A stretch of 64,000 nt of DNA from Elusimicrobiota bacterium (GTDB lineage: Bacteria; Elusimicrobiota; Elusimicrobia; UBA1565; UBA9628): positions 34,469-98,468 of the forward strand of contig JACPOW010000010.1 of assembly GCA_016191335.1 (NCBI GenBank). The letters are read 5' to 3'. This document shows, piece after piece, positions 5,034-19,921 of this stretch. The notes under the pieces were generated by a model. The model searched no databases. It saw nothing but the letters and a program-made list of their open reading frames with translations, and was not told where the DNA came from. How positions within the stretch are numbered: the first letter of the stretch is position 1; every line of letters starts with the position of its first letter. The translations under genes and the position numbers were made by a program.

Positions 5034-5087
5034 GACCCCCTTACGGCGGCCGGGATCATCGACGGAGAAATCAGCGCTTTGGTCCGA

Positions 5088-5105: not shown

Positions 5106-5192
5106 ATTTCTCCTGAGGGCAGTCATGGGTTGACTGCTGCGCTCAGGGCCAGAAGCGTGGACGAGGAGGGCAATATTTGCGCGTCATCAAGG

Positions 5193-6416
5193 TCAGCGCG
5201 TATCGCCGATGGACTTCGCACCAGTCTCAGTTCGTTGCGCGCGATCGGGATTGAATCTGTAGCCCTCGCTTCGGACCGACTCGACCAGATTACTGAAACG
5301 GCCGAGCTTGTGCTTGAGGTTGCTCACGTGCTTACGCAGTTTTTCGGAACCGAGCTCCGGCCACGCACTGTAAAGCTTTTTAAAGATGACCCTGTGGGGC
5401 ACCGGGTTCCCATTGGCGCTCATGAGCAAGGCAAAGAATGCGCTTTCCGTGGGCGTCAAATGGATGTCGGTGCCATCCGGAATTCCGAGACGATGTTTCT
5501 TCATATCCAAGCAGATTCCATTCACTCGGATGACTCCGCGCGCATCGGCTTGAAAGCGATGCCGCCAAAGCATGCGCCTGATGCGGGCTTGCAGTCGGAG
5601 CGGCGGCGTCGTTTTGACGAGGTAGTCATCCGCGCCGATCCCAAAACAGGCGGCTTCCTGCTTGATTCTCGGGTCTCCAGTCAGGATAAGAATCGGGAGG
5701 GAGAAGGTCCTTTCCTGCTCCCGAAGTCTTCGGCAGACTTCGCGGCCGTCGATTCCCGGCATGTTCAAGTCCAAGACGGCGAGATCCGGCATCTCGCTGG
5801 CCGCCAGGCGCAGCCCTTGGGCTCCTGTCGAGGCCCAAAGGATGCGGCAGTTCATGGCGCGCAGAACGACGCTTAACAGCTCGGAGGTTTCGGGCTCGTC
5901 GTCAACAACGAGAATCGTATGTTGATATTCGGGACCCGCTTCAGCATCCAAGGGCAAGCCAGTTGTGATGCCGTTGATCCTGCGTTTAGCTGAAGCGGCC
6001 ATCTGCATCGGAATCAGCGCTTCGATGTGCCTTAGAAGCGGCTTTTCGTCTAGAGACATCTCTCCAATCCGGGCTTTGTCCAAGAAGAAGTCGGCTCCGG
6101 TTTTCAACGCATTCCGCCGATCCTTAGGCGACGGGTTCTCACCCGAAACGATGATGACGGGAACCTTATTCGTGCCATGATGGCGTTTGAGGGCCTTTAA
6201 GGTGTCGTGCCCTGAAAGACCTTCGCCAAGGACCCAGTCGAGGAGAATCAGATCGGGCTTATTGTCGGCGCAAAGCCGGATCGCGTCCATGCCGCTGCTG
6301 ACATGGATAGAATCGAGGCCGTAGGCCTTGAGATGTTGCGAAAGAAAGCGCGAATAGAGAGGATCGTCATCAACGACTAAGATTCGAGGCAAGGGCCCTC
6401 CCCGGAATGGGCCCAT
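5193..6416 (-). CDS. Response regulator with two receiver (REC) domains and a C-terminal OmpR/PhoB-type winged-helix DNA-binding domain
   Basis: ILVVDDDPLY...DLILLDWVLGEGLSGHDTL (REC1); ILVVDDEPETSELL...DLAVLDLNMPGIDGREVCRRLR (REC2); C-terminal LTPTESAFFALLMSANGNPVPHRVIFKKLY...EGYRF (trans_reg_C). Confidence 0.8.
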   Translation of the reverse strand: MGPFRGGPLPRILVVDDDPLYSRFLSQHLKAYGLDSIHVSSGMDAIRLCADNKPDLILLDWVLGEGLSGHDTLKALKRHHGTNKVPVIIVSGENPSPKDRRNALKTGADFFLDKARIGEMSLDEKPLLRHIEALIPMQMAASAKRRINGITTGLPLDAEAGPEYQHTILVVDDEPETSELLSVVLRAMNCRILWASTGAQGLRLAASEMPDLAVLDLNMPGIDGREVCRRLREQERTFSLPILILTGDPRIKQEAACFGIGADDYLVKTTPPLRLQARIRRMLWRHRFQADARGVIRVNGICLDMKKHRLGIPDGTDIHLTPTESAFFALLMSANGNPVPHRVIFKKLYSAWPELGSEKLRKHVSNLKHKLGRFSNLVESVRSEGYRFNPDRAQRTETGAKSIGDTR

Positions 6417-6533
6417 TATAGCTATTGCGTGCGAAGAACGGACGGCGGCCTGTCGCTGTCATTCGGACTCACAGAGCAAGATGAAGACTCACGCCGCTTC
6501 CTTAGCGGTAAAGAAGTCTTGGACTCATTACAA

Positions 6534-8726
6534 CTAGCGCCGACGCGAGCGCAGGGCCGCGAGCGAGCGCGCCGCGGCGGCGTGGCCGGGGTCGAGGCGC
6601 AGGGCCTCGGAGAGGTGCTCCTCGGCGGCGGCCCAGTCCTTGCCCCAGGCCAGCACGGCGAGGTTATACCGCGTCTCCGCGAGCGGGTACAGGGCCAGGG
6701 CGCGCCGGTAATGCGCCTCGGCGCCGGCGGCGTCGCCCAGCTTCTCGTGGGCCACGCCGCTGTGGGTGGCGGACTCGGCGGCCTGGCGGCGCAGGCCGGA
6801 GACCACGGCGGGCAGGGCCCGGTAGCGCTCGGCGAGCTCGAGCTTCTCCGCGAACAGGCCGTCGGCGGCGGCGTAGGAAACGGCGGCCTCGGCCATGCGC
6901 CCGGTGCTCGCCTGGACGTAGCCGAGGAAGAGGGGGATGTCGGGGAACTGCCAGGAGGCGGCCCAGCCTTCCTGGAGGAGGGCCTCGGCCTCGCCGGAGC
7001 GGCGCTCGCGCTGGAGGGCGACCGCCTCGCGGAAGTCGGCGGCGGCGTAGCCCTCGATGAGGTCGCGCGTGAAGAAGTCGGGCGCGTCCTCGGCGCGGCG
7101 CGCGCCGCGGCGGACGAGCAGGTCGCGCGGCAGGCCGCCGGCGACGCCGGAGTACGCCTGCAGGAGGCCGCGGGGAGAGAGCCCCGGCGCGAGGGGCTCG
7201 GGAGGCTCGGCGTCCTGCGTCATCAGCACCGGGACGCCGGCGACGCCCAGCGCCTTCCAGCCCTCGGGGACGGCGAGGCTCGTGACGAGCAGCGCATGGT
7301 CGCGGCGGCGCCAGTCGGCCTGATACCACGGCGCGCCGGCCAGGCCCTGGGAGACGACGCGCAGGTCGGGGCGGCGCCCGGCGACGGTCTGGTAATGCCA
7401 CAGCGCGTACAGCGGGACGTCCTTCTTGGCGACGACGACGGAGCCGGAGGGCGCGGCGCGGAAGGCGTTGGCGGCGAAGTCGAGCGTGTGGAAGTGCGCG
7501 CGGCGGTCGAGGCGCTCGGGCACCGCGCGCGCCAGCGGCCAGGCCAGGACGGCCGCGACGGCTAAGGCGCGGCGATACTCGCCGAGGGAGGCGACGCCGC
7601 CGGCCAGCCAGAACAGGAGCACCGCGTCGGAGAGCAGGTAATGCGGGTCGATGATGGCGGCGGCGTGCGGGTTGGGCGGCATGTTGGCGAGGAACAGGAA
7701 GACGGGCCCGGCCCACCACCACGCGGCCAGGCGGCCGTAGAAGCGGGAGCGGTCGTGGCACAGGTCGGCGAACGCCCCGAGGGCGGCCAGCGCCAGGGCC
7801 GGCCCGAAGGCGTCCCACAGGTGCGCGCCCCACAGGCGCAGGTTGTCGGCGAACAGCTCGCCGACGCCGTAGTTGCGCGAGATGAGGTCGAGAGTGCCGC
7901 CGTAGCGCGTGCGCAGGAGGGAGTCGAGGAGGTTGGCCGGGGCGGCGGGGTGGTTCCAGTCGAGCAGCGGCCCCGTGGCCGAGCGCACGGGAAGGTACAG
8001 GTACACGGAGAGGCCCGCGAGGCCGGCGCCCACGCCCCAGGCGATCCGGCGCGCCGCGCCGTCGCCGCGCGCCCGCGCGAGGAAGGTGCCGGCGATGAGC
8101 GCGGCGGCGGGGAGGTTCGAGCCCGAGAGGGCGGAGACCGCGGGGAACAGGAACAGGGCCGCGCCGAGCCAGAGGCCGTCCTCGCCCCGGGCCGAGGGAC
8201 GGGAGGCGAGCGCCAGCCACACGAGGCCCGGAGCCAAGAGGATGAGGTCGAGACGGTTGGCGAGCAGAAGCCCGCACAGGTAGCAGAAAGCGGGCCACAG
8301 GCGCTCGGAGGGGTCCTCGGACAGGCGGCCGGCCAGCGCGATCAAGGCGACCGCGCTCAGGACCCACAGGGAGTACATCTCGGAGACCTGGGACACCGCC
8401 CAGAAGCCGGGGTTGAGGGCGAGGCACGCCGCGGCCGCGAGGCCCGCCCAGGCGCCTTTGCGCGGGCGGAGCGCGGCGAAGAGCAAAGCGCAGGCGGCGG
8501 CGCCGGCGACGGCGGAGAGGAGGTTGAGGCGGTAGGCGGGGTTGCCGAGCGGGACCAAGGACGCCAGGCGGCCGAGCAGGACGTACAGCGGGTAGCTCGT
8601 CGGGTGCGCGACGCCGAGCGTGGAGGCGGCCACGGTCATCTCCCCGGTGTCGCGCCACGGCGCCAGCACCGGGGGGAGCTTGGCCAGGTACAGCGCGAGG
8701 ACGCCGAGGAAGACGCCGAGGCTCAT
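6534..8726 (-). CDS. DUF2723 (GT-C fold, PMT/ArnT-like polytopic glycosyltransferase-like) membrane protein with C-terminal TPR repeats; paralog 2
   Basis: In-frame ATG at 8726 (MSLGVFLGVLALYLAKLPP...) overlaps the upstream stop as ATGA. The track ORF 6534..9104 has a spurious N-extension. Multiple TM helices, then TPR (AEAHYRRALALYPLAETRYNLAVLAWGKDWAAAEEHLSEALRLDP). Confidence 0.7.
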   Translation of the reverse strand: MSLGVFLGVLALYLAKLPPVLAPWRDTGEMTVAASTLGVAHPTSYPLYVLLGRLASLVPLGNPAYRLNLLSAVAGAAACALLFAALRPRKGAWAGLAAAACLALNPGFWAVSQVSEMYSLWVLSAVALIALAGRLSEDPSERLWPAFCYLCGLLLANRLDLILLAPGLVWLALASRPSARGEDGLWLGAALFLFPAVSALSGSNLPAAALIAGTFLARARGDGAARRIAWGVGAGLAGLSVYLYLPVRSATGPLLDWNHPAAPANLLDSLLRTRYGGTLDLISRNYGVGELFADNLRLWGAHLWDAFGPALALAALGAFADLCHDRSRFYGRLAAWWWAGPVFLFLANMPPNPHAAAIIDPHYLLSDAVLLFWLAGGVASLGEYRRALAVAAVLAWPLARAVPERLDRRAHFHTLDFAANAFRAAPSGSVVVAKKDVPLYALWHYQTVAGRRPDLRVVSQGLAGAPWYQADWRRRDHALLVTSLAVPEGWKALGVAGVPVLMTQDAEPPEPLAPGLSPRGLLQAYSGVAGGLPRDLLVRRGARRAEDAPDFFTRDLIEGYAAADFREAVALQRERRSGEAEALLQEGWAASWQFPDIPLFLGYVQASTGRMAEAAVSYAAADGLFAEKLELAERYRALPAVVSGLRRQAAESATHSGVAHEKLGDAAGAEAHYRRALALYPLAETRYNLAVLAWGKDWAAAEEHLSEALRLDPGHAAAARSLAALRSRRR

Positions 8727-10774
8727 CTCTTCCCCGTCGCCCGGAAGCGCGCCTGGGCGGCCCACGCGGCGGAGCGGCCGTCGGCGGGGTCGAGCTCGGC
8801 GGCCGAGGAGAAGGCGTCGGCCGCGTCGGCCCAGCGCGAGTCGGCCCACAGGCGCGCGCCGAGCGCGGACCAGGCCCGGGCGGAGCGCGGCTCGCGGCGG
8901 ATGGCCTCGCGGAAGGCGGCCTCCGCCTCCTTGGTCCTGCCCGCGCGCTCGAGGGCCACGCCGAGGTTCGCCAGCGGCTCCGCCTTTTGGGGCTCGAGCG
9001 CGGCGCCGGCGCGGTAGGCGCTCTCCGCCGCCGGCCAGTCGCGGCGCTCGACGGCGCGGAAGCCGGCCACGCCCAGCGCGTAGGCCGCGGTGGGCACGAC
9101 CCACAGCGCGTCGGGAGCGACGGAGGCCGACAGCTCGATCCAGCGCACGCCGGCCTCGGCGTCGCCGCGCGCGAGCGCCTCGACGCCGCGCTGATAGGGC
9201 ATGAACGCCGCCAAGGCGCGGTCGCGGTAGCGCGCGGCGGCCGCCTCATGGGTCCAGCGCACGGCGACGGCCTCGCGCAAGGCGGGGCCGTCGGGGAACG
9301 GGGCCTTGGGCGCGAGCGGCCGGCGCAGGAGTCCGGCCGGGGTCAAGGTCGCGTCGGGTAGGACTCCCTCGTTCAAGGTCGAGTACCACAGGCGGCCGGA
9401 GGCGAACCAGCGGCCCTCGACCTCGCGGCGGCGGGCTTCTTTCGCGTCCTTGGTCAACGAACGGAAGTCGGGGCCGTAGCCGCCGGGGAAGACGACGCCG
9501 CCGCGGTCGCGGAGTTCGATATCAGGACGCTGACCCGCGGCCACGGTCAAGAACGACAACGAATAGAAGGTGTCGTCCCCACCGTCCATTACCACGACCG
9601 CGTTCGGGGGAAGGCTCCTCAGGATGGAACGGCCATAGTCGTAGGTCAGAAAATCGTTTCGTCTCGATTCGGCCAACGCTTCGGGGATCATCGACAATGC
9701 GGCGATCGCCGCGGCCATGGCGGAGAACTTCGCCACGCGTGTCCCCAGCATGGCCAGCCCGGCGGCGAGGAACGGAACGGCACCGATCAATGGCAGCAGG
9801 AAGAAGCGCTCGAGGGCGCCGCTGGTCTGCGCGTCGAAGCCGGGGCGGCCGAGGAAAAGGAAGAAAGGCCCGGCGGCAAGGAGCCATACGGCAGGGACGC
9901 TGGCGCGCACGGCCAGTCCCGCGCGGGCGAAGGCCATGGCGCCGAAGGCGGCGAGCAGGAAGCCGCCGGGGCCGAAGGCGCGGACCGAGGCGCGCACGAA
10001 GCGCCAGAGCTGGGCGGCGAGCTCCGACGGGCCGAAGTCCCGGGCCCCGTCGACGGTCAGCGCGAAGGTGCCGTAGTCGCGGCGCAGGAGCAGGCGCCAC
10101 AGCGCCTGCGGCGTCGTCGCGTGGCCCCAGTCCACCGGCGGGGAGGCCGCCGCGCGCAGGGGGATGGCGAGGTGCAGGGCGAAGCCGGCGGCCGCGCCGA
10201 GCGTCGCGCAGGCCAGGGCTTTGGCCCAGCTTCCCTTCTTGCCGAGGCCGGCGAGGAGCAAGGCGGGCAGGACGAGCAGCAAGGTCTGGTGCACGCCGAG
10301 GCCCAGGCCGAAGACGAGGCCGAGGGCCGCGGCCGGCCCGGGCTGGAGCAGGCGCTCGCCCGCCGCCGCGACGACCCACAGCAGGCCCGCGGCGGCCAAG
10401 GCGAGCGGGGCGAAGGCCTCCGCCACCGCGCTCTGCTCGCGCCACAGCGGGGCGAGGCCGATGATCACCACCGCGCCCACGCGCGCGGCGCGTCCGGCGC
10501 CCCAGCGGCGCAGGGCGTCGCACAGCAGGGCCAAAGCCGCGGCGGCGCACAAGGCGGAGAGCAGGTTGGCGCGGTAGGCCCAGTTCCCGAGCGGCAGGGC
10601 CGTGCCCAGCGCCTTGGCGAGCACGGTCCAGGTGGCGTAGCCAGGCGCGTGCGGCACGCCCCACGACGCGGCCGCGGCGGCGAACTCCCCGGCGTCGCCG
10701 GTGGTGACCGACGGCGCGGCCTGGAAGACGCCGAGGGCCGCGAAGGCGAGGAAGACGACGACGGGCTCAAGCAT
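8723..10774 (-). CDS. DUF2723 (GT-C-like) membrane protein with C-terminal TPR repeats; paralog 1
   Basis: 683 aa. N-terminal hydrophobic polytopic region (YATWTVLAKALGTALPLGNWAYRANLLSAL...) parallels the downstream paralog. C-terminal TPRs (AESAYRAGAALEPQKAEPLANLGVALERAGRTKEAEAAFREAIRREP). Confidence 0.7.
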   Translation of the reverse strand: MLEPVVVFLAFAALGVFQAAPSVTTGDAGEFAAAAASWGVPHAPGYATWTVLAKALGTALPLGNWAYRANLLSALCAAAALALLCDALRRWGAGRAARVGAVVIIGLAPLWREQSAVAEAFAPLALAAAGLLWVVAAAGERLLQPGPAAALGLVFGLGLGVHQTLLLVLPALLLAGLGKKGSWAKALACATLGAAAGFALHLAIPLRAAASPPVDWGHATTPQALWRLLLRRDYGTFALTVDGARDFGPSELAAQLWRFVRASVRAFGPGGFLLAAFGAMAFARAGLAVRASVPAVWLLAAGPFFLFLGRPGFDAQTSGALERFFLLPLIGAVPFLAAGLAMLGTRVAKFSAMAAAIAALSMIPEALAESRRNDFLTYDYGRSILRSLPPNAVVVMDGGDDTFYSLSFLTVAAGQRPDIELRDRGGVVFPGGYGPDFRSLTKDAKEARRREVEGRWFASGRLWYSTLNEGVLPDATLTPAGLLRRPLAPKAPFPDGPALREAVAVRWTHEAAAARYRDRALAAFMPYQRGVEALARGDAEAGVRWIELSASVAPDALWVVPTAAYALGVAGFRAVERRDWPAAESAYRAGAALEPQKAEPLANLGVALERAGRTKEAEAAFREAIRREPRSARAWSALGARLWADSRWADAADAFSSAAELDPADGRSAAWAAQARFRATGKR

Positions 10775-12971
10775 GGCCGGAGCGCCTCCTCAGCGTCCAC
10801 TCGGCGAGGAACAGGAGGCCCGCCAGCGCCAGCCAGAACGGGGACAGGAACGGCCGCAGGCGGCGCACCGTCTCCTCGCGCGGGCTGGGCGGGGGGAGCA
10901 GGTCGAGCAGGGGCCCGGGGCGCGCGACGGACAGGTCCGCGAAGGTCCCGCCGCCGGCGGCGGCGGCTTTCGTCAGCCAGTTGCGGTCCATCGGCTCGTC
11001 CTGCACCGGCTCCCAGACGAAGCGGACCTCGTCCTCGCCCCACGGCCGGCCGCGCACGCGCGCCGAGGCGCGCACCTTGTGGGCGCCGGGCGAGAGGCCC
11101 AGCAGCTCGACGGCGTAGACGCCGGGCTCGGCGAGCCTCACCGGGGCCTCGACAGCCTTCCCGTCGGGCCCCGTCCAGACCACGCTCACGCGCGTGTCCG
11201 CCGCCGGCGCGGGGCCGAAGCCCTCGTCGAAGACGCGCAAGGACAGCTTCGCCGGCTCGCGCGGCGGCACGCGGTCGGGCAGCGGCGCGAACTTCACCTT
11301 GGACAGGTCGAGGCCGCCGGTCAGGTACTGCACCGCGCGCGTCCAGAACCGCGCGTAGAAGCCCGCCGCGTCCGGGTCCGCCGCGGCGCCGAGCTTCCAG
11401 CGCCACGACGAGTCGGTGGAGATCAGCATGACCTTGCCGCGGCCGAAGGAGCGCACGGCCGCCACGGGCAGGGGCTTGCCGTCGTCCGCGCTCTGGCCGG
11501 GGTGGTAGGCCAGCACGGTCGCGCCGGGGCGCGTCGAGGCGAACCGCGCCCACCCGTCGAGCGGCGGCAAGGCCGCCCAGGCGCGCTGAGACAGCTCCGC
11601 GGTCTCGTACAGGCGCACCAGCGGATGCTCGGGCGGGCCGGGCTTGGCGGCGAACAGGCCGGGGACGAAGTCCGGGGCTCGCGCGGAGAGGACGACGGGC
11701 AGGGCCTCCTCGAGCGGGGAGCCCTTGTAGCCGCCGGCGGAGAAGGCGTTGTCGCCGCCCTTGACGAGCAAGGCGCCGCCGCCCTGGACGAAGCGCTTGA
11801 GCGCGTCGAGGTACTGCGGCGGCAGGCGGAAGCGCGCGGCGGAGAAGTTCTCGAGGATGAACAGGTCGAACTGGGGCAAAGCGCGGCCGAAGATCTCGTC
11901 GACCGGGAACGGGATCAAGGACAGCTCGCTCTCCGACGCGGGGGAGGGGTTCTCCGGATTGCGCAGGATCACGAAGGAGACGAGCTCGTGGTTCGGGTCG
12001 GCCTTGAGGAACTCGCGCAGGGCGGCGTACTCCGGGCTGGGGCGGCCGGCGAGGTACATGATGCGGTACTTCTGGCGCACGGTCTCGACGCGGAACTCGC
12101 GCGTCCGCTCGCGCCCGCCGACGGACGCGACGAGGCGCAGGCGCGCGGTGCCCAGCGCGTCGGCCGGGGCGGCCAGCTCGACGGGGAAGGTCTCGAGGTC
12201 GGCGTTGACGCGGCGCTTGACCCGGCCCGCCTCGCGCCAGCCGCCGGGGGCGCTCTCGTCGGCGCGGGACAGGGCCACCGTCGCGTCGCGCCCGGCGAGG
12301 CCGGTGGCCTCCACGCTCGCGCTCACGGGGATGACGCCGTGCAGGAAGGCGAAGTCGGGGGCCTTCAGGTCGAGGAAGGCGGCGCCGGTCTCGCGCTTGA
12401 CGGGCCCGACGCCGAGGAGGTCCACGGGAGAGCCGAGCCCGGCGAGGAGGCGGCCGAGGTCCCCGCCGCCCTCGGCGATCCCGTCGGTGACGAGCCAGGT
12501 GCGAGCGGGGGGGCCCTCGGGAGGGACGGCGTCGGGGAGGCTTTGCTCGGGCTTGAAGGCGGTGCCCTCCGCGGCGGCGAGGGCGAGCTTGTCGAGGCCG
12601 CCCAGGGGACGCGCGCGGTCCGACACGACGGACACGGTGACGTCGGCGCGGGACTCGATGGAGGATCTGTTCTTCTGAAGCCAGGAAACGGCCTGGGCGA
12701 GACGGGACGGGGACGCGGGCGCTTTGCCCTTCATCGTGTGGCCGGCGTCGAGGAGGATGTGCAGGCGGGGCTTCGCGAGCTGGCCCTGGCGGGCGAGGAC
12801 CGAGGGGCGCAGGAAGGCGAGGGCGAGAGCGAGGGCGGAGAGCCCTCGGAGGACGAGCAGCGGGCGGCGGGCCGGGGAACGCCGGCAGTGGACATAGAAC
12901 GCGCCGGCGAGGACGGCCGTGAACAGCCAGGGGAAAAGGCCGGGGGCGAAATCCAACCCGTAAGAGCTCAT
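10767..12971 (-). CDS. BatA_N-type double-transmembrane protein with a GATase1/ThuA-like domain and a C-terminal TM anchor (Bat operon accessory protein)
   Basis: N-terminal two TM helices separated by an RR-rich loop (GLFPWLFTAVLAGAFYVHCRRSPARRPLLVLRGLSALALALAFL). Middle segment FDLFILENFSAARF...GGGALLVKGGDNAF is class-I glutamine-amidotransferase-like. C-terminal TM FLSPFWLALAGLLFLAEW. Start overlaps upstream stop (ATGA). Confidence 0.55.
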   Translation of the reverse strand: MSSYGLDFAPGLFPWLFTAVLAGAFYVHCRRSPARRPLLVLRGLSALALALAFLRPSVLARQGQLAKPRLHILLDAGHTMKGKAPASPSRLAQAVSWLQKNRSSIESRADVTVSVVSDRARPLGGLDKLALAAAEGTAFKPEQSLPDAVPPEGPPARTWLVTDGIAEGGGDLGRLLAGLGSPVDLLGVGPVKRETGAAFLDLKAPDFAFLHGVIPVSASVEATGLAGRDATVALSRADESAPGGWREAGRVKRRVNADLETFPVELAAPADALGTARLRLVASVGGRERTREFRVETVRQKYRIMYLAGRPSPEYAALREFLKADPNHELVSFVILRNPENPSPASESELSLIPFPVDEIFGRALPQFDLFILENFSAARFRLPPQYLDALKRFVQGGGALLVKGGDNAFSAGGYKGSPLEEALPVVLSARAPDFVPGLFAAKPGPPEHPLVRLYETAELSQRAWAALPPLDGWARFASTRPGATVLAYHPGQSADDGKPLPVAAVRSFGRGKVMLISTDSSWRWKLGAAADPDAAGFYARFWTRAVQYLTGGLDLSKVKFAPLPDRVPPREPAKLSLRVFDEGFGPAPAADTRVSVVWTGPDGKAVEAPVRLAEPGVYAVELLGLSPGAHKVRASARVRGRPWGEDEVRFVWEPVQDEPMDRNWLTKAAAAGGGTFADLSVARPGPLLDLLPPPSPREETVRRLRPFLSPFWLALAGLLFLAEWTLRRRSGHA

Positions 12972-15709
12972 GGCGCGGCCGCCTTGAGCTTGTCGAGGAT
13001 GGCGGCCTGGTGGACGGCGTCGGACTTGTAGGAACCCGTGAGGGAGTACATCACGACGTTGAGGGTCAGGCGGCGGGCGAGCTCGCGCTGGGGCTCGCCG
13101 CCGGGGACGCAGGCGCGCAGGGGCTTGCCGAGGGCGTCTTTCGCCCAGGCGCCGAGGGCGTCGTCGCGGGTGTAGAGGACGGCGACGCGGCCGCCCCAGT
13201 CGACGCCCTCGAGGGAGCCGTGGACGCGGACACGGCCCGCGGGGCCTCGGAGGAGGAAGAAGGTGCGGTAGATCACATGGTCGGGAGGGAGGGGCTTGAG
13301 CGAGGAGTCGGGGAGGATGCGGGGCAGTTCGCGGCGCAGCCAGCGGTCGAAGGAGCCGGGGGGGCCGCCGCCGGAGTCCTCCACCCAGAGGAAGCCGCCG
13401 CCGGAGATGAACTGGCGCAGACGGCGGAGCTCGTCGTCACGGAGTTCGGGCGGAGCCGAGGTGCCGGCCAGGTAAACGAAGGGGGAGGAGAAAAGGGCGG
13501 GGTCGCTCAGAGAAATCGTCCTGCGCGCGGGAGAGGTGCGCACGCTGGTGACCTCGCCGAGCCAGGCCGTGAGAAGATCGGGGGCGTCGGGGTAGGGGTC
13601 CCAGGTGTCTCCGAGCTGGAGCTGGGTCCACACAAAACGGTCCCCTTGTTGGGCTAGGGCACGCGATGGGAACGATGCCAGACAAATAAAAATAAATAAG
13701 GCCGTCGCCCCGCGCAACGGCAACGACAGGAGCATCTCGAAGACGAGCATCAGGACGGCCAGGCCGAGGAGCCAGGCGGACAGATCTTTTCCGTAAACGG
13801 AATCGAGGAACTCGTTCTCGAGGTTTTCCACGTCACTTGAGCGCCATGGTGGAGAACTCGCGGGAAGCAAGTCGCTCTCCCCGCGCGACGAATCCAGATT
13901 GGCGGCGAAGGTGACGGTGCGAACGCCATCCACGAACGTATATAAGCCAGGGACCGAAGCTTCCGGCAAAACGGCCCTTCGGCCGGAAACCGATAACGAA
14001 GTCCGACGGCCATCAGGCGAGATCACGCTGATCCGATCCGGCGCGGCTTCGCCGCGCGACCATTCGCGGATGATGGGGTCGCCCACCTTCACCTTCCGGG
14101 CTGCGTCGCGAGCCGAATCCGGAACGCTCAAGGCCAGACAGGCGCGGGCCCAGGGGATGAAGAACGGCTTCAATCCTAAATTCGTCCACGCCGCGTCGAG
14201 CGGCGTCGCCCACACGACCGCCCGTCCTCTTCCGACGCTTCCCGCCACGAGCACCGCCTCTCCCGAGACACCGCTCACCCACACCTCGGACCCGGGAGCG
14301 GGCTCGAGGAGGAACATACGGCGCACGCTCACCTTGGATAAATCCAAATCTCCCCAACCGGAAGTCGCTTCACCCTCGCGTATGACCTTTAACCCCGGCG
14401 CGGAGACCTCCACCGCCGTTCCGAGCCGCGCCGGAAGCCATGGGAATGCGGCGAGGTCGGCCTCGTTACCACGCACCCCCGGGATGAACACCACGCCGCC
14501 GCCGCGTCCGGCGAATGCCTCGAGCGCGGCCGAAAGCCCCGGCGCGGGTCGCGCCGCGTCGGCCATCATCACGGTCCCATATTTAGTCAGATCCGCTTCG
14601 TTCCAACGCGCGGCCTCCAGAAAATCCGCGTCGCGCCCCGCCAAGGTCTCCCGCCCGCCGCCGAACAGCTCCCGCAGGAACCACCCCGGCTTCCCCGCGC
14701 GGAAGAACTGCGGGTCGGAGTACAGCACCAGCACCCGCGGCGACGGCCGGTGCGCCATGGAGAAATACACCTGGTCGTCCTCGGCCAGGGCGCCCGGACG
14801 GGCGGCCACGCGGCCGGCCCAGGAGGGGGCGGCGCTGTCCTCGGCGGCGGGCAGGGCCAGAGCGGAGCGGGACTCGGCGCCGGCTGGGGCAGAGGCGGAG
14901 CCGGAGCCGGCGCGGCGGTCCCCGACCCACAGGTCGAGGGGCGTGGAGGCGGGGGCGCCGGCGGCGGCGAGGCGGACCTCGACGCGGGGGGCGCGCGCGC
15001 TCGAGTCGGGGGAGGGGCCGGCGGAGGAAAGCCAGGCGTTGGCCAGCGCGGGGAAGCGCAGGCCGATCACGGCGGCGCCCTCGGCGGGCGCGGGGGCCTT
15101 CTCGCGCAGGCCGTGCTCGGCCCCGTCGCCGAGGACGACGACGGCGCGCTTGCGCCCGCGCGGCGCCTCCTCCAGCGCCTTGCGCGCCGCGGCCAACGCG
15201 GCGGCGGCGTTCGTGCCGCGCCAGCCCGGGCGCGCGGCGGCCAAGGCCGCGTCGGCGGCGCGCGCGTCGCCCCAGGCGAGCGGGGCCTTGAGCGCCTCGT
15301 CGAAGGTCCCGACGGCCACGCGGTCGCCGGGCGCCAGGCGCTTGAGCAGGCGGCGCCCCGCCTCGCGGGCCGCGTCGAAGCGGACGGTGACGCCGTCGCG
15401 GGCGCGCGTGGAGTACGACGCGTCGAGCAGGAGCACGAGGTCGAGCCCCGCCGCGCCCGCCGCCGCGTCGCCGCGCCGCGCCGGGGCGGCGGCCGCCAGT
15501 ATCAGCGCCGCGAGCAGGACGCAGCGCGCGGCCATGAGCAGCAGCTCGCGCAGGCGCGCCTTGGGCCGCGCCCGCGCGTCCACGGCCTTGAGCAAGGTCA
15601 GGTCGGAGAACGGCACGCGCCGCGCGGCGCGCCGCGACATGAGATGGATGACGACGGGCAGGGCCGCCAGCGGCAAAGCCCACAGCGCCGCCGGGAAGCC
15701 GAACCTCAC
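12968..15709 (-). CDS. BatA-like protein: BatA_N double-TM segment + von Willebrand factor A domain, continuous in-frame with a C-terminal DUF4159-like domain (apparent fusion)
   Basis: Likely GTG start at 15709 overlapping the DUF58 stop (GTGA). N-terminus FGFPAALWALPLAALPVVIHLMSRRAARRVPFSDLTLLKA (BatA_N). vWA LDLVLLLDASYSTRARDG. Internal hydrophobic segment MLLSLPLRGATALFIFICLASFPSRALA. C-terminal GGGFLWVEDSGGG...DHVIYRTFF...RLTLNVVMYSLTGSYKSD resembles DUF4159. Confidence 0.55.
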   Translation of the reverse strand: MRFGFPAALWALPLAALPVVIHLMSRRAARRVPFSDLTLLKAVDARARPKARLRELLLMAARCVLLAALILAAAAPARRGDAAAGAAGLDLVLLLDASYSTRARDGVTVRFDAAREAGRRLLKRLAPGDRVAVGTFDEALKAPLAWGDARAADAALAAARPGWRGTNAAAALAAARKALEEAPRGRKRAVVVLGDGAEHGLREKAPAPAEGAAVIGLRFPALANAWLSSAGPSPDSSARAPRVEVRLAAAGAPASTPLDLWVGDRRAGSGSASAPAGAESRSALALPAAEDSAAPSWAGRVAARPGALAEDDQVYFSMAHRPSPRVLVLYSDPQFFRAGKPGWFLRELFGGGRETLAGRDADFLEAARWNEADLTKYGTVMMADAARPAPGLSAALEAFAGRGGGVVFIPGVRGNEADLAAFPWLPARLGTAVEVSAPGLKVIREGEATSGWGDLDLSKVSVRRMFLLEPAPGSEVWVSGVSGEAVLVAGSVGRGRAVVWATPLDAAWTNLGLKPFFIPWARACLALSVPDSARDAARKVKVGDPIIREWSRGEAAPDRISVISPDGRRTSLSVSGRRAVLPEASVPGLYTFVDGVRTVTFAANLDSSRGESDLLPASSPPWRSSDVENLENEFLDSVYGKDLSAWLLGLAVLMLVFEMLLSLPLRGATALFIFICLASFPSRALAQQGDRFVWTQLQLGDTWDPYPDAPDLLTAWLGEVTSVRTSPARRTISLSDPALFSSPFVYLAGTSAPPELRDDELRRLRQFISGGGFLWVEDSGGGPPGSFDRWLRRELPRILPDSSLKPLPPDHVIYRTFFLLRGPAGRVRVHGSLEGVDWGGRVAVLYTRDDALGAWAKDALGKPLRACVPGGEPQRELARRLTLNVVMYSLTGSYKSDAVHQAAILDKLKAAAP

Positions 15710-16564
15710 CGCGTGAGCAGGCGCCCCAGCGCCGCCTCCCAGTGGCCCGTCGTCTCCGCGACCGCGTAGGCCAGGCCCGCGCGGCGCAAGGCGCCGGCGT
15801 ACGCGTCGGCCTGACGCGCGAACGCGGCGCGGTAGGCCGGCGCCGCCTCCAGCGCGTCCACGAACAACGGCTCGCCGCCCTCGAGGCCCTCCATCAGGCA
15901 CGGCCCCTCGTACGGGAACTCGCGCTCATCGGGGTCGAGGGTCCGCAGGACCAGGACCTCATGGCGCCGCGCGACCAAGGCCCGCACCGCCTTGAGCGCG
16001 CCCGCCGTATCGCCCATCAGGTCGCTGATCAGCACCACCATCCCGCGCCGCGGCAGTTCCTCGGCGGCGGCCTCGATGGCGCGGGCGAGGTCCGTCTCGC
16101 CCTGAGCCGAGGCCAAAGTCAGCGCCTCGTCGAACGCCCCGAGCTGGGCCGCGCCCGCTCGAGGGGGAAGGGCGAGCCTGGCCTCGGTGCCGAAGGTGAC
16201 GAGCCCGGCCTCGTCGCCCTGCGCCAGCGCCAGCCACGCCACGGCGGCCGCCGCGCGCCGCCCCAGGTCGAGCTTGGATTGGCGCCCCGCGCCCGCGTAG
16301 GCCATCGAGCCGGAGGCATCGAGCAGGACGAAGACGGGGATGCGGTCCTCGGAGCGGAACTCGCGCACGTAGAAGCGGTCGAGGCGCGCGTACGCCTTCC
16401 AGTCGATGCTCCGCGACTCGTCGCCGTAGGAGTACGGCCTGTGCTGGGCGAAGTCGCGTGAGTGCCCGCGCGCGAGCGAGCGGTGCTTGCCCGGCGCGCC
16501 GGACAGGCCGGAGGCGCGCCGCGGGAACAGCCCTAGGCCCTTGAGGCGGGCCTGCGACTCGGGA

Positions 16565-16578
<14 letters not shown>
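15706..16578 (-). CDS. DUF58 family protein (MoxR-associated vWA-like)
   Basis: GHSRDFAQHRPYSYGDESRSIDWKAYARLDRFYVREF...VFVLLDASGSMAYAGAGRQSKL is typical DUF58. Overlaps the MoxR gene by 14 nt. Confidence 0.75.
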
Positions 16579-17557
<979 letters not shown>

Positions 17558-17566
17558 GAGGGTAAT

Positions 17567-18634
17567 CTACCTGTTTTTGCGCTTCAGGCTCCAGGTCACC
17601 AGCCCCGCCGCGGCCAGCGCCGCCAAGGCGGCGAACACCCCGAGCACGAGCTTGCGCGACGGCCCCTGCTTCTCGATCGGTATCTTCGGCGTGGAGGCCA
17701 GCAATCCCGGCACCGCCGTCGGCCCCGCCTTGAGCGCCGCCAAGGCCCCGACCATCAGCTCGTCGGCGGCCGGCCCGCGCCCGAACAATTGATAGCCCCA
17801 GTAGCCCCACGGCAGGTATCCCACCGAGAGCTTCTCCGCCGGCCCGCTCGCGGCCCACGAGTACACCGCGACGGGGCCCGCCGCCGTGGCCGCCGCCTTC
17901 ACCGGCGCGATCTTGTCCGCCGCCACGCCCGCCGAGGTGGCCGTCAGCTCGCGCACGATGGCCGCCTGCTCCCCGGGCTTGGTCGCGTCCGCCTCGGCCA
18001 GCTTCTGGAACAGCACCTCGGAGCCCGCGCCCTGGATGACGAGCACGAAGCCCTTCGCCGTCTCCGAGTCGAGCAGCGACCGCGACCGCCGCCCTCCGCC
18101 CAGCGCCAGCTCCAGCTGTCCGTCGAGGCTGCGCGCCACGCCCGCGCTCTGCACCGCGCCCTCGATGCGCCCGATCTGGATGGACCCCAGGAGAGAATTG
18201 ACCATCGCCTCCGGCGCCGCGCTCATCAGCACCGCCAGGTGCGGCGTGCCGCCCGCCCCGAACAAGGCGATGAGCACCCGGTCCTCGCCCGCCAGCTGGC
18301 CCTTGATCAACTGCGCCGTCAGGCCGTTGCGGAACACGCGCGTCTCCACGCGCCCGCTCGAGCGGTAATCCTTCCCGCTTCCCTCGCGCAGCCCGCCCAG
18401 GACGTCCTGCAGATAGCCGCGCGTCCCCGCGGGGTTGTCGAGCGGCGCCTTGGGCGCGCGCCGGACGATGAACGACGCCATCTCCGGACCCTTGAGCACG
18501 ATGACGGCGTTGCGCACCTTCCCTTCGCTCAGCACATCCTTCCAGCCGGGAGGCGCCTCCAAGGTGGGGGACGCGGCGTGAGACAGCGCGGCGCTGAAAG
18601 CCAGGAAAAGCGAGGCGTAGATGGTATTTCTCAT
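17567..18634 (-). CDS. Hypothetical exported protein with cleavable signal peptide and C-terminal TM anchor; first gene of the MoxR/Bat-like operon
   Basis: 355 aa. N-terminus MRNTIYASLFLAFSAALSHAASP. C-terminus LVLGVFAALAALAAAGLVTWSLKRKNR. Ends 9 nt before the MoxR start. Confidence 0.45.
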   Translation of the reverse strand: MRNTIYASLFLAFSAALSHAASPTLEAPPGWKDVLSEGKVRNAVIVLKGPEMASFIVRRAPKAPLDNPAGTRGYLQDVLGGLREGSGKDYRSSGRVETRVFRNGLTAQLIKGQLAGEDRVLIALFGAGGTPHLAVLMSAAPEAMVNSLLGSIQIGRIEGAVQSAGVARSLDGQLELALGGGRRSRSLLDSETAKGFVLVIQGAGSEVLFQKLAEADATKPGEQAAIVRELTATSAGVAADKIAPVKAAATAAGPVAVYSWAASGPAEKLSVGYLPWGYWGYQLFGRGPAADELMVGALAALKAGPTAVPGLLASTPKIPIEKQGPSRKLVLGVFAALAALAAAGLVTWSLKRKNR

Positions 18635-18707
18635 CGTGGGAATGAGTTTATCAACATCCGGGGGGAGCGGGGAACCTGTTCTTTTCCGATTTCGATCCTC
18701 TCGAGGA

Positions 18708-18737
18708 GGGTTTTGAGCACAATCGTGCTCAAAACCC
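18708..18737. promoter_or_regulatory. Perfect 13-bp inverted repeat GGGTTTTGAGCAC-AATC-GTGCTCAAAACCC between the ceramidase-like gene and the Bat-like operon
   Basis: Read directly. Lies about 75 nt upstream of the 18634 start codon and 13 nt downstream of the 18750 stop. No T-tract follows on either strand, so it is more operator-like than terminator-like. Confidence 0.35.
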
Positions 18738-18749
18738 CCGAGGGAGGAG

Positions 18750-19454
18750 TCAGCGACGCCCGACCGACCTGGTCGCCGGCACGGCCGCGATGACGAAGAA
18801 CGAGGCGACTCCGGCGGACAGGTGCTTGAGGGTGTGGCCGCTCAACACAAAGGAAGAGAACACCTGACGGTCGTAGGTCTCGAGGACCTTCGCAAGAACA
18901 TAAAAAGCGACGGCGACCATCAACAGGCGCCCATCGAGGAACTTCCGCGGGAACAGGAACAGGATCAACGGCATGAGCACCAACGGCAAGAATTGCACCA
19001 GGATGTAGGCCCTGAGATCGCCGGTCTCGCGCCAATACAAAGCGCTCGCGATGCCTAAAGCAACCAGCACCGGCAAGGTCTTGAAGGTCGTGACCCGTTC
19101 CTCCAACAACATCGCGAAAAGACCCATGAACGCGACCGTCATGGGCAGGCGGTCCCACAGAAGCGTCGCGTCGGAGGGGGACCGGTGATAGTAGGCCGAG
19201 CCGAGGCTCACCAGGAGCACTCCCACGCATAAGGTCGTGTACGCCGGGCGGTTCGTCGAGACCGTTCGTCGCAGACCGTACAGGCCGACGACCAAGAACA
19301 GGACATTCGACATCACATCAAAGAAATTCGGCAGCCCCAGCCAGGACCGCGCGTCGGCGAAGGCATGATACGCCTGATCCTGGAGGATGGGCGCGTGGAA
19401 GAAGGTCGCGACCACGGCGGCCGCGGCGATGACGCCCAGAGCCCCGTGCCTCAT
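18750..19454 (-). CDS. Alkaline-ceramidase-like 7-TM membrane hydrolase (bacterial ceramidase family)
   Basis: True start MRHGALGVIAAAAVV... at 19454 (ATGA overlap with GNAT stop). The track ORF 18750..19709 is N-extended. Motif ILQDQAYHAFADARSWLGLPNFFDVMSNVLF and later YHRSPSD match the ceramidase/CREST family; multiple TM helices. Confidence 0.6.
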   Translation of the reverse strand: MRHGALGVIAAAAVVATFFHAPILQDQAYHAFADARSWLGLPNFFDVMSNVLFLVVGLYGLRRTVSTNRPAYTTLCVGVLLVSLGSAYYHRSPSDATLLWDRLPMTVAFMGLFAMLLEERVTTFKTLPVLVALGIASALYWRETGDLRAYILVQFLPLVLMPLILFLFPRKFLDGRLLMVAVAFYVLAKVLETYDRQVFSSFVLSGHTLKHLSAGVASFFVIAAVPATRSVGRR

Positions 19455-19921
19455 GCCAGCTTCAGGACGAACTCGTCGTACTTCTCGCCGGCGGCGTTGG
19501 AGAACTTGTCCTCGCCGATCACCGAAAACCCGTTCTTCTTCACGACCTGAAGGGACGCGGCGTTGTGCTTCGCCACCCGCGCGAACAAGGGGCGGAACTT
19601 GTATTCCTTCAGGAAGGTCTTCAGCGCCCTCGTGGCCACGCCCTGGCCCCAATGCTCGCGGGCGATCCAGTAGCCCACCTCGCGGTCGGGGCGCACGCGG
19701 ACGAAGCACACGAGGTAGCCGGCCACCGCGCCGTCGAGCAGGATCATCTTCTTCTCGACGCCCGCATCCTTCAATATCTTGCGCCAGTGCTTCACGAAGT
19801 CCGGGCGGCTGCGGGGCACGAACCCGGCCAGGCGGTTGGCCTCCGGATCCGATTGCATCTTGTACAGCGCGGGGATGTCGGCGGCTTTCGCGTCGCGGAG
19901 CGTCAGCGACCCTCGCGCCAC
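19451..19921 (-). CDS. GNAT-family N-acetyltransferase
   Basis: LTLRDAKAADIPALYKM...ILLDGAVAGYLVCF...WIAREHWGQGVATRALKTFL...ARVAKHNAASLQVVKKNGF is a GNAT fold with acetyl-CoA motif. Start set at GTG 19921; upstream ORF sequence is antisense-type junk. Start uncertain by a few codons. Confidence 0.6.
   Translation of the reverse strand: MARGSLTLRDAKAADIPALYKMQSDPEANRLAGFVPRSRPDFVKHWRKILKDAGVEKKMILLDGAVAGYLVCFVRVRPDREVGYWIAREHWGQGVATRALKTFLKEYKFRPLFARVAKHNAASLQVVKKNGFSVIGEDKFSNAAGEKYDEFVLKLA

What the first reader, a model, noticed from the sequence alone, without database searches (positions are those of the whole stretch)
6534..18634. Twelve-kb, seven-gene MoxR-DUF58-vWA (Bat-like) operon with non-canonical downstream members and serial 4-nt start/stop overlaps
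The order is: exported hypothetical, MoxR ATPase, DUF58, a BatA_N+vWA protein fused in-frame to a DUF4159-like domain, a second BatA_N double-TM protein with a GATase1/ThuA-like domain, then two tandem DUF2723(GT-C glycosyltransferase-like)+TPR paralogs. Junctions are ATGA or GTGA overlaps at 8723-8726, 12968-12971 and 15706-15709, or short overlaps. Classical Bat operons (Bacteroides, Leptospira) have BatA-E with vWA/TPR proteins. Here the TPR function is supplied by polytopic PMT/ArnT-like proteins. That suggests a MoxR/vWA chaperone module coupled to glycosylation or membrane remodelling of an envelope substrate, which to my knowledge is not described.
Basis: partly seen in the sequence, partly recalled or inferred. 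Interest (0 to 1): 0.55.

Follow-up and report, generated by a model that had tools for sequence, protein, structure and literature searches.

The report
MoxR/vWA envelope operon with TMEM260-like glycosyltransferases
This is a real seven-gene operon from an uncultured Elusimicrobiota bacterium, in which a widespread but poorly understood MoxR ATPase/vWA membrane module is followed by two enzymes of the family of the human protein O-mannosyltransferase TMEM260; the pairing is conserved across that phylum and I found no description of it.

Summary
Seven minus-strand genes lie at 6534-18634, with the stated domains and junctions.

The first four conserved genes are not unusual. MoxR, DUF58, BatA_N+vWA+DUF4159 and a double-TM GATase1-like protein form the same four-gene operon found in Rhizobium and Paracoccus. 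That is the RL3499-RL3502 type, which has been linked to envelope integrity.

The new part is the downstream pair. Both are TMEM260-family GT-C enzymes. Five of the six functionally important human residues I compared are conserved: D52, H67, R264, Y267 and the catalytic base D441. The C-terminal TPR belongs to that family and does not replace BatC.

The linkage is conserved across Elusimicrobiota:
- Of 63 informative species loci, 42 have one or two such genes directly after gene 5, and 10 more have them within 10 kb.
- Deeper lineages (26-69% GC) carry up to three copies.
- It is absent from the Rhizobium and Paracoccus loci examined. TMEM260-like genes of Roizmanbacteria and Zixibacteria have no such module nearby.

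The topology suggests a periplasm-facing complex driven by cytoplasmic MoxR/DUF58 and coupled to protein O-glycosylation. The substrate and the sugar are unknown.

Verdict: a new variant of a known kind, of moderate interest.

The parts
17567..18634 (-). g1: exported, C-terminally membrane-anchored protein (355 aa) made of two tandem PsbP/DcrB-like alpha/beta domains. It is a lineage-specific first gene of the operon.
   Evidence: No Pfam or NCBIfam family. It has an N-terminal signal-peptide-like segment and a C-terminal TM helix with a KRKNR tail. The AF2 model has pLDDT 83. Foldseek against the PDB gives CyanoP/PsbP and M. tuberculosis Apa as top hits (E about 1e-4, target-normalised TM about 0.5). 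All 88 homologs found are from Elusimicrobia. It is present upstream of MoxR in 25 of 48 loci that include MoxR.
16565..17557 (-). g2: MoxR-type AAA+ ATPase (330 aa), cytoplasmic
   Evidence: AAA_3 1.8e-61 and AAA_lid_2 1.5e-17. Walker A GVPGLAKT and Walker B VLADE are visible in the translation. No TM segment.
15706..16578 (-). g3: DUF58 protein (290 aa), vWA-like with an intact DxSxS motif (DASGS), cytoplasmic
   Evidence: DUF58 3.5e-48 and VWA_2 5.2e-12. Sequence. No TM segment.
12968..15709 (-). g4: BatA_N double-TM hairpin, vWA (MIDAS DASYS), beta-sandwich/GATase1-like ectodomain, TM3, a signal-peptide-like TM4 and DUF4159 (913 aa)
   Evidence: Pfam and TIGR02226 4e-15. The TM1-TM2 loop carries 10 K/R residues, so it is predicted cytoplasmic and the ectodomain periplasmic. 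It has the same architecture as the Rhizobium 937-aa 'DUF4159 domain-containing protein'. In deep Elusimicrobia lineages it is split into two genes.
13649..13705 (-). Fusion joint inside g4: the hydrophobic segment ATALFIFICLASFPSRALA|QQ, equivalent to the N-terminal signal peptide of stand-alone DUF4159 proteins
   Evidence: It aligns with the N-terminus of the separate DUF4159 ORF of L088 (MKINRVIINCLALAALLLTASARFCLC|QQEDNF). L088:2864-3613 is a 249-aa DUF4159 protein.
10767..12971 (-). g5: paralog of g4 (734 aa) with a double-TM N-terminus, a vWA-like domain with degenerate MIDAS (DAGHT), a beta-sandwich, a GATase1-like domain lacking a conserved Cys, a second beta-sandwich and a C-terminal TM
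   Evidence: GATase1_like 8.2e-08. hhalign against g4 gives 97.7% probability. The AF2 model has pLDDT 84 and shows these domains. A profile search of the PDB hits GATase1-like proteins 2gk3, 3soz and 3rht, and weakly BatB 3ibs. There is no invariant Cys among 41 homologs. Distant orthologs keep DxSxS.
8723..10774 (-). g6: TMEM260-family GT-C glycosyltransferase with C-terminal TPR (683 aa)
   Evidence: PF11028 4e-15 (56.5 bits against a cut-off of 24.2) plus TPR. It is 29% identical to g7. The residues equivalent to human D52, H67, R264, Y267 and D441 are present.
6534..8726 (-). g7: second TMEM260-family GT-C glycosyltransferase with C-terminal TPR (730 aa)
   Evidence: PF11028 1.1e-21. phmmer against human TMEM260 (PDB 9rql) gives E 1.7e-23. 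D26, H41, R272, Y275 and D436 match human D52, H67, R264, Y267 and D441.
18708..18737 (.). Perfect 13-bp hairpin between the upstream ceramidase-like gene and g1. It may be a terminator of the upstream gene. Whether it belongs to the operon is uncertain.
   Evidence: Sequence. It is unique in the window. It is not conserved in the 88%-identical relative L002.

Best explanation
This is a conserved Elusimicrobiota operon. It joins the widespread four-gene MoxR/vWA envelope module (MoxR ATPase, DUF58, BatA_N-vWA-DUF4159 protein, and its GATase1-like paralog; the RL3499-RL3502 type) to two TMEM260-family GT-C glycosyltransferases.

Proposed mechanism:
- g4, g5 and g1 are inner-membrane-anchored proteins whose large domains face the periplasm.
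- MoxR and DUF58 stay in the cytoplasm. They act on the complex through the conserved, positively charged cytoplasmic loop of the BatA_N hairpin, using ATP to assemble or remodel it.
- g6 and g7 transfer a sugar from a polyprenyl-phosphate donor to Ser/Thr of extended polypeptide segments in the periplasm. Their TPR domains capture the acceptor.
- The most likely acceptors are the periplasmic domains of the operon's own proteins or of clients held by them.

Shown: gene content, domain identities, conservation of functional residues, conserved linkage, and paralogy of g4 and g5.

Inferred: topology, the MoxR contact site, protein (rather than lipid or glycan) acceptors, and the identity of the acceptors and the sugar.
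For: Operon structure:
- Junctions overlap or nearly touch.
- Terminator-like sites are no more frequent than chance (8 found, 7.5 expected), and no sigma-70-like promoter site was found in 5000-20000.
- The 88% relative L002 has the same seven genes but a different downstream flank, which sets the operon end at g7.

The four-gene core is ancient:
- The same four genes and architectures occur in Rhizobium leguminosarum pSK03 and Paracoccus.
- RL3499 is reported as important for membrane integrity and cell morphology (PMC3893208; Vanderlinde 2011, cited).

Linkage to the glycosyltransferases:
- 42 of 63 informative Elusimicrobiota species loci have TMEM260-like genes directly after g5, and 10 more have them within 10 kb on the same strand.
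- The linkage persists in lineages with 26-69% GC and only about 160-300 bits of g5 similarity, with up to three copies.

The glycosyltransferases look active and protein-directed:
- E 1.7e-23 to human TMEM260.
- The equivalents of D52, H67, R264 and D441 are kept in 119 of 121 linked orthologs and in g6 and g7; the Y267 equivalent is kept in 110 of the 121, the rest having F, H or S.
- D441 is the acceptor-activating base and the TPR is the peptide-binding part in the human enzyme.

Topology:
- K/R-rich TM1-TM2 loops and K/R-rich C-terminal tails.
- A signal-peptide-like joint precedes DUF4159.
- The BatA-like protein BB0173 has a periplasmic vWA domain by experiment (PMC5700661).
Against: - No transcript, protein or glycan data exist for this organism.
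- The core works without any GT-C in Alphaproteobacteria, so the module does not need a glycosyltransferase.
- 11 of 63 Elusimicrobiota loci show no glycosyltransferase nearby. Some Elusimicrobia carry close g7 relatives with no module within 10 kb (L097, L103, L104).
- No IPT-type acceptor sequon occurs in g1-g7.
- R355 of human TMEM260 is not matched in the alignment.
- How a cytoplasmic ATPase would act on periplasmic vWA domains is unexplained.
Confidence: 0.55

Rival explanations
1. The neighbourhood reflects no mechanistic coupling. The TMEM260-like genes are independent envelope-biogenesis enzymes that sit in, or are co-transcribed with, the MoxR operon in this phylum. They neither act on nor need the MoxR/vWA proteins.
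For: - The core exists without glycosyltransferases in Rhizobium and Paracoccus.
- In 10 Elusimicrobiota loci the glycosyltransferases are separated from g5 by 0.8-8 kb of other genes.
- 11 loci show none.
- Close g7 relatives occur with no module nearby (L097, L103, L104).
Against: - Adjacency on the same strand survives divergence down to 36% g5 identity and a GC span of 26-76%.
- In this window the start and stop codons overlap, which suggests translational coupling.
- The copy number changes (1-3) but the position directly after g5 is kept.
Confidence: 0.25
2. The GT-C enzymes modify a non-protein acceptor in the periplasm (lipid A/LPS, a cell-wall glycan or another lipid-linked glycan). 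The MoxR/vWA module assists that envelope remodelling, as ArnT-type enzymes do for lipid A.
For: - g7 has a weak PMT_2 hit, a family that also covers ArnT-like enzymes (1.5e-05, just below the cut-off).
- The Rhizobium operon phenotype is envelope integrity.
- No recognisable IPT sequon occurs in the operon proteins.
Against: - The luminal Asp that deprotonates the peptide Ser/Thr in human TMEM260 (D441) is conserved in the operon-linked Elusimicrobiota proteins; R264 and the peptide-binding TPR are kept too, and Y267 in most.
- The best family match is PF11028, well above threshold.
Confidence: 0.12
3. It is a classical Bat (Bacteroides aerotolerance) operon whose role is oxygen tolerance, with the TPR proteins replaced by TPR-bearing membrane proteins.
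For: - BatA_N and vWA domains sit next to MoxR and DUF58.
- There is a weak NCBIfam hit to Leptospira BatB (0.0014, far below the cut-off).
Against: - Pfam reported no BatD family and no SH3 domain for any of g1-g7, and no stand-alone TPR protein lies inside the operon.
- The DUF4159 and GATase1-like genes match the RL3499-RL3502 type instead.
- The TPR is native to TMEM260-family enzymes.
- By my recollection of PMC3557215 (listed but not read), Leptospira bat mutants showed no oxidative-stress phenotype.
Confidence: 0.05

Closest known systems
RL3499-RL3502 operon of Rhizobium leguminosarum (Vanderlinde et al. 2011, J Bacteriol 193:2684; cited in PMC3893208 and PMC5700661)
   Same: Same four genes in the same order with the same architectures: MoxR (AAA_3), DUF58, a BatA_N...DUF4159 protein of about 930 aa, and a GATase1-like membrane protein of about 700 aa. 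g5 is 28-35% identical to alphaproteobacterial homologs.
   Different: The Rhizobium and Paracoccus operons stop after the fourth gene, with no TMEM260-like gene and no g1. Pfam reports no VWA_2 hit for the Rhizobium gene-3 protein, whereas g4 has a clear vWA with MIDAS.
Human TMEM260 protein O-mannosyltransferase (PDB 9rql/9rqm/9rqn; PMC10214176; bioRxiv 10.64898/2026.03.17.711096)
   Same: A GT-C transmembrane core, a luminal/periplasmic domain and a C-terminal TPR. The sequence match is E 1.7e-23. D52, H67, R264, Y267 and the catalytic base D441 are conserved in both g6 and g7.
   Different: These are bacterial, occur in two divergent copies (29% identity) and lie in an operon with a MoxR/vWA module. 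R355 is not matched. No IPT-type sequon is found in the neighbouring proteins. The donor would be an undecaprenyl-type rather than a dolichyl carrier, which is an inference. The sugar is unknown.
Bacteroides fragilis BatI operon and spirochaete Bat loci (Tang 1999; PMC3557215; PMC5700661)
   Same: MoxR and DUF58 are followed by membrane proteins with the BatA_N double-TM domain and vWA domains. The vWA faces the periplasm in BB0173.
   Different: Pfam found no BatD family, no SH3 domain and no stand-alone TPR (BatC-like) protein among g1-g7. DUF4159 and GATase1-like domains are present instead.
OST48/Wbp1 subunit of eukaryotic oligosaccharyltransferase (GIFT domain; PMC7226087)
   Same: Among the 50 PDB matches listed for the g5 model, chain G of human OST-A/OST-B (6s7o, 6s7t) has the highest TM-scores (target-normalised 0.38-0.41, about 430 columns). 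Both proteins have an alpha/beta GATase1/GIFT-like domain, then a beta-sandwich, then a single C-terminal TM helix. Both are partnered with a GT-C enzyme.
   Different: The similarity is at fold level only (rmsd about 10 A) and no sequence signal was found. I identified chain G as OST48 from its length (410-411 residues) and my own knowledge, not from a tool. g5 homologs also occur without any GT-C partner.

Membership tests
MoxR AAA+ ATPase | AAA_3 ATPase core with Walker A/B motifs and an AAA lid domain | tested here: met
   AAA_3 206 bits (cut-off 27) and AAA_lid_2 63.5 bits. GVPGLAKT and VLADE motifs are in the translation.
MoxR AAA+ ATPase | Encoded next to a vWA-domain partner | tested here: met
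   DUF58/VWA_2 (g3) and a vWA protein (g4) lie immediately downstream.
RL3499-RL3502-type four-gene operon | Gene order MoxR, DUF58, BatA_N...DUF4159 protein, double-TM GATase1-like protein | tested here: met
   g2-g5 match Rhizobium L084 gene for gene. The order is the same in all Elusimicrobiota loci that cover it, although MoxR is displaced by a ~5-kb insertion in one (L001/L037).
RL3499-RL3502-type four-gene operon | Loss causes envelope and morphology defects | not testable with these tools
   This needs genetics. It is known only for R. leguminosarum.
Classical Bat operon (BatA-E) | BatA: N-terminal double-TM BatA_N domain plus vWA | tested here: met
   g4 has BatA 50.6 bits and VWA_2 50.1 bits.
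Classical Bat operon (BatA-E) | Stand-alone TPR protein (BatC), BatD, and SH3+TPR protein (BatE) | tested here: not met
   Pfam scans of g1-g7 reported no BatD family and no SH3 domain, and the operon contains no stand-alone TPR protein. TPR occurs only as the C-terminus of the GT-C enzymes.
TMEM260 family (PF11028, GT-C O-mannosyltransferase) | Match to the family model above the gathering score | tested here: met
   g7 scores 77.9 bits and g6 56.5 bits against a cut-off of 24.2. g7 against human TMEM260 gives E 1.7e-23.
TMEM260 family (PF11028, GT-C O-mannosyltransferase) | Functional residues D52, H67, R264, Y267 and catalytic base D441 (human numbering) | tested here: met
   g7 has D26, H41, R272, Y275 and D436, and g6 has the equivalents. 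D52, H67, R264 and D441 equivalents are conserved in 119 of 121 operon-linked orthologs; the Y267 equivalent in 110, the rest having F, H or S.
TMEM260 family (PF11028, GT-C O-mannosyltransferase) | R355 in TMH10 contacting the mannose | tested here: inconclusive
   In the phmmer alignment R355 faces a Pro of g7 (IIDPHYLL) in a low-confidence stretch.
TMEM260 family (PF11028, GT-C O-mannosyltransferase) | C-terminal TPR domain on the non-cytoplasmic side | tested here: met
   TPR hits at g6 574-665 and g7 650-715. The sidedness is inferred from the human enzyme.
TMEM260 family (PF11028, GT-C O-mannosyltransferase) | Transfers mannose from polyprenyl-phosphate-mannose to Ser/Thr of IPT domains | not testable with these tools
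   This needs biochemistry. No IPT-type sequon occurs in g1-g7.
Class I glutamine amidotransferase (the name NCBI gives g5 homologs) | Catalytic Cys-His-Glu triad | tested here: not met
   No Cys is among the invariant or nearly invariant columns of 41 g5 homologs. Only the fold-level family GATase1_like is matched.
OST48/Wbp1-like (GIFT domain) accessory subunit | GIFT alpha/beta domain, then a beta-sandwich, then a single TM, associated with a GT-C catalytic subunit | tested here: inconclusive

The most novel reading that the evidence does not exclude
g4 and g5 are bacterial counterparts of the OST48/Wbp1-type accessory subunits. Together with the TMEM260-like GT-C enzymes, the PsbP-like g1 and the MoxR/DUF58 motor, they form a multi-subunit, ATP-assisted protein O-glycosylation machine in the inner membrane. 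By extension, the broadly conserved RL3499-type and Bat-type operons, whose function has been unclear since 1999, would be platforms that handle lipid-linked sugars or glycoprotein clients in the envelope.
Probability: 0.12. Interest if true: 0.8.

Novelty: new variant of a known kind. Interest (0 to 1): 0.5.

Why it matters
Two poorly understood systems meet here.

- MoxR/vWA membrane operons (Bat, RL3499-RL3502) are widespread, and in Rhizobium the operon affects envelope integrity. No molecular mechanism for them was described in the papers I read.
- I found no functional study of a bacterial TMEM260 homolog in the papers searched. The human enzyme was recognised only in 2023, and its structure and catalytic residues were reported in 2026.

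A phylum-wide operon that joins the two gives each a concrete, testable partner. One can ask which periplasmic proteins are O-glycosylated, and whether the vWA/GATase1-like proteins are substrates or scaffolds. It also shows that NCBI's name 'glutamine amidotransferase' for g5 homologs is probably wrong.

Tried and rejected
- An exact look-up of the window's g5 found no contig on record.
- tblastn of g7 against plasmids found nothing.
- Vanderlinde 2011 (PMC3133104) is not held, so its content is cited second-hand.
- A regex for the TMEM260 acceptor sequon (P-x5-P-x3-G-P-x2-[GA]-G-G-x2-[ST]) and two relaxed forms found nothing in g1-g7.
- The promoter scan found no sigma-70-like site, and terminator-like sites were at chance level.
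- Rfam found only one tRNA, far from the operon.
- The hairpin upstream of g1 is unique in the window and not conserved in a close relative, so I do not count it as a regulatory element.
- A search seeded from an Elusimicrobiales g5 homolog found only MAG proteins and no cultured organism.
- I considered that g6 and g7 are a recent tandem duplication and rejected it. They are 29% identical, and both types recur across the phylum.
- I considered g5 to be an amidotransferase enzyme and rejected it, because there is no conserved Cys.

Full report
**What is there**

The region 6534-18634 carries seven minus-strand genes. Choosing starts that avoid long overlaps gives:
- g1 17567-18634
- g2 16565-17557
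- g3 15706-16578
- g4 12968-15709 (GTG start)
- g5 10767-12971
- g6 8723-10774
- g7 6534-8726

Third-position GC of 0.85-0.96 marks these frames as coding. Terminator-like sites inside the region are no more frequent than in shuffled sequence (8 against 7.5). The best protein matches are all from Elusimicrobia MAGs (93-50% identity), so the window comes from an uncultured member of that phylum.

**Domains**

- g2 is a MoxR ATPase (AAA_3 1.8e-61).
- g3 is a DUF58 protein (3.5e-48).
- g4 has BatA_N (2.7e-13; TIGR02226 4e-15), VWA_2 (4.7e-13) and DUF4159 (1.2e-34).
- g5 has GATase1_like (8.2e-08).
- g6 and g7 match PF11028, the former DUF2723 now named 'TMEM260-like' (4e-15 and 1.1e-21), and have C-terminal TPRs.
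- g1 matches nothing.

The one gap is BatA_N in g5, which no library reports. However, profiles built from orthologs show that g4 residues 57-603 and g5 residues 37-636 are homologous (hhalign probability 97.7%, E 2.5e-12). g5 is thus a paralog of the BatA-like protein. Its MIDAS motif is degenerate here (DAGHT) but is an intact DxSxS in most of the deeper-branching orthologs examined.

**The first four conserved genes are a known, widespread operon**

tblastn of g5 against plasmids and chromids found 28-35% identical homologs in Rhizobium, Sinorhizobium, Paracoccus, Azospirillum, Methylobacterium and Gemmatirosa.

In R. leguminosarum pSK03 the annotated neighbours are 'MoxR family ATPase', 'DUF58 domain-containing protein', a 937-aa 'DUF4159 domain-containing protein' and a 689-aa hypothetical protein. 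Then the operon ends. Pfam gives these the same architecture as g2-g5. Paracoccus is the same and is followed by fabZ-lpxA.

This is the RL3499-RL3502 type of operon. RL3499 is reported to matter for membrane integrity and cell morphology (PMC3893208; Vanderlinde et al. 2011 as cited in PMC5700661). I could not read the 2011 paper itself. So the BatA_N+vWA+DUF4159 fusion and the GATase1-like protein are the canonical members of this operon type, not oddities.

In deep Elusimicrobia lineages g4 is two genes: a 665-aa BatA_N+vWA protein ending in a TM helix, and a 249-aa DUF4159 protein with its own signal peptide. The g4 segment ATALFIFICLASFPSRALA|QQ aligns with that signal peptide.

**The downstream pair**

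g7 matches human TMEM260, whose structure is now solved (9rql/9rqm/9rqn), with E 1.7e-23. The 2026 structure paper names these functional residues (bioRxiv 10.64898/2026.03.17.711096):
- D52 and H67 in the first luminal loop
- R264 and Y267
- R355
- D441, the base that activates the acceptor Ser/Thr
It also shows that the TPR domain binds the acceptor peptide.

In g7 the equivalents are D26, H41, R272, Y275 and D436, and g6 has the same set. Among 121 operon-linked orthologs, 119 keep the equivalents of D52, H67, R264 and D441, and 110 keep the Y267 equivalent. Only R355 is not matched, and it falls in a poorly aligned stretch.

g6 and g7 are 29% identical, so they are old paralogs that both look active. 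TMEM260 itself is a GT-C core plus a C-terminal TPR (PMC10214176). The TPR of g6/g7 is therefore native to the enzyme family and does not stand in for BatC.

**Is the linkage conserved?**

A scan of one genome per GTDB species with a g5 alignment returned 80 loci, all from Elusimicrobia MAGs, at 36-85% identity. I searched their six-frame ORFs with the window's proteins.
- The order g2-g3-g4-g5 is the same wherever the contig covers it; in one locus (L037) a ~5-kb insertion separates MoxR from DUF58.
- Of 63 loci with at least 2.5 kb after g5, 42 have TMEM260-like genes directly after g5 (26 with two, 16 with one).
- 10 more have them within 10 kb on the same strand.
- 11 show none.

A second scan, of metagenome contigs, was seeded with more distant TMEM260-like proteins.
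- It found the same arrangement in lineages with 26-69% GC, often with a split g4 and three tandem glycosyltransferases. In five of these loci the three are followed by a DUF4175 protein, preceded in four of them by a 557-aa protein of unknown function.
- Wherever a source gives a name, these contigs are Elusimicrobia or Elusimicrobiales.
- About 45 loci with still more distant TMEM260-like genes have no MoxR, DUF58, g4 or g5 homolog in their flanks. Two of these could be named and are Roizmanbacteria and Zixibacteria.
- Three Elusimicrobia also carry a close g7 relative with no module within 10 kb (L097, L103, L104).

The linkage is therefore common and old within Elusimicrobiota, is not universal there, and was not seen outside the phylum in what I could sample.

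**Topology and the other proteins**

Hydropathy and charge counts give the following.
- g4 has a 34-residue TM1-TM2 loop with 10 K/R residues.
- g5 has a C-terminal TM helix followed by RRRSGHA.
- g1 has a signal-peptide-like N-terminus and a C-terminal TM helix followed by KRKNR.
- g2 and g3 have no TM segment.

With the signal-peptide-like joint before DUF4159 and the experimentally periplasmic vWA of BatA-like BB0173 (PMC5700661), this puts the bulk of g1, g4 and g5 in the periplasm. That is the side where GT-C active sites and the TMEM260 TPR lie.

AF2 models:
- g1 (pLDDT 83) folds as two tandem PsbP/DcrB-like domains. The top PDB matches are CyanoP, PsbP and the M. tuberculosis protein Apa.
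- g5 (pLDDT 84) shows a vWA-like domain, a beta-sandwich, a GATase1-like domain, a second beta-sandwich and a C-terminal helix.

No Cys is conserved among 41 g5 homologs. The NCBI name 'glutamine amidotransferase' is therefore probably a misnomer.

**Most likely mechanism**

I favour an inner-membrane, periplasm-facing complex of g4, g5 and g1. Cytoplasmic MoxR/DUF58 would assemble or remodel it through the BatA_N hairpin loop. In Elusimicrobiota this complex would be coupled to O-glycosylation of periplasmic polypeptides by g6/g7, which draw on a polyprenyl-phosphate sugar.

The gene content, residue conservation and linkage are shown. The topology, the contact point, and the nature of the acceptor and the sugar are inferred. 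I put this at 0.55.

The main rival (0.25) is that the glycosyltransferases are merely co-located envelope enzymes. The glycosyltransferase-free operons in Alphaproteobacteria and the unlinked copies in some Elusimicrobia support that view. A non-protein acceptor (0.12) is made less likely by the conserved D441 equivalent and the TPR. A classical Bat aerotolerance role (0.05) fails the membership test for BatC, BatD and BatE.

**Novelty**

The held literature mentions DUF2723 once and DUF4159 once, neither time in this context. No paper listed for MoxR, DUF58 and BatA, or among the ten shown for Elusimicrobia with MoxR or glycosyltransferase, describes the pairing. I rate it a new variant of a known kind: a known operon type with a conserved, previously unremarked glycosyltransferase extension. 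Its interest is moderate because all carriers found are uncultured.

Noticed in passing
window 34423-45963 (-): A giant ORF of 3846 aa with third-position GC 0.95 and no Pfam match at E<=1e-4. It could be a very large orphan surface or secreted protein.
   Followed up: no
window 18708-18737: A perfect 13-bp-stem hairpin (GGGTTTTGAGCAC-aatc-GTGCTCAAAACCC) between the ceramidase-like gene and g1. It is unique in the window and absent from the 88%-identical relative.
   Followed up: partly
window 6001-18000 against its flanks: The operon is 70-76% GC while the DNA on both sides is 61-65%. Other stretches of the window (34-40 kb, 44-46 kb) are also about 75% GC. The cause was not examined.
   Followed up: no
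window 18750-19452 (-) and 19903-21345 (-): A ceramidase-family membrane protein and a caspase-like Peptidase_C14 protein lie just upstream of the operon. The same pair precedes the operon in relative L002.
   Followed up: no
window 1827-5033 (-) and 936-1826 (-): A 1068-aa protein with NHL repeats, a bacterial Ig-like domain and a ZU5 domain lies next to a PorV/UPF0164-like outer-membrane protein.
   Followed up: no
L087, L088, L091, L109, L116 (for example L088:12202-17137): In five Elusimicrobia loci (26-57% GC) carrying three TMEM260-like genes, the operon continues with a DUF4175 protein of about 1089 aa that has a bacterial Ig domain; in four of them a conserved 557-aa protein with no Pfam family precedes it. 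Neither has a homolog in the window.
   Followed up: partly
L001/L037 (GCA_016209035), 770-6230: In this 50%-identical relative, MoxR is separated from DUF58 by about 5 kb of inserted genes, including a Fic/AlbA-type protein and a nitroreductase. The two TMEM260-like genes lie 8 kb downstream, beyond opposite-strand TPR proteins.
   Followed up: no
L004 (CALRXP010000149.1): This record is titled 'Candidatus Endomicrobium trichonymphae', yet it carries a g5 homolog 82% identical to this high-GC window. The MAG label looks doubtful.
   Followed up: no
window 48053-50980 (+) and 51256-53574 (+): A 975-aa protein made almost wholly of TPR repeats is followed by a 772-aa protein with no Pfam match. 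A TAtT-DctP-DctM TRAP-T transporter follows at 53605-57202.
   Followed up: no
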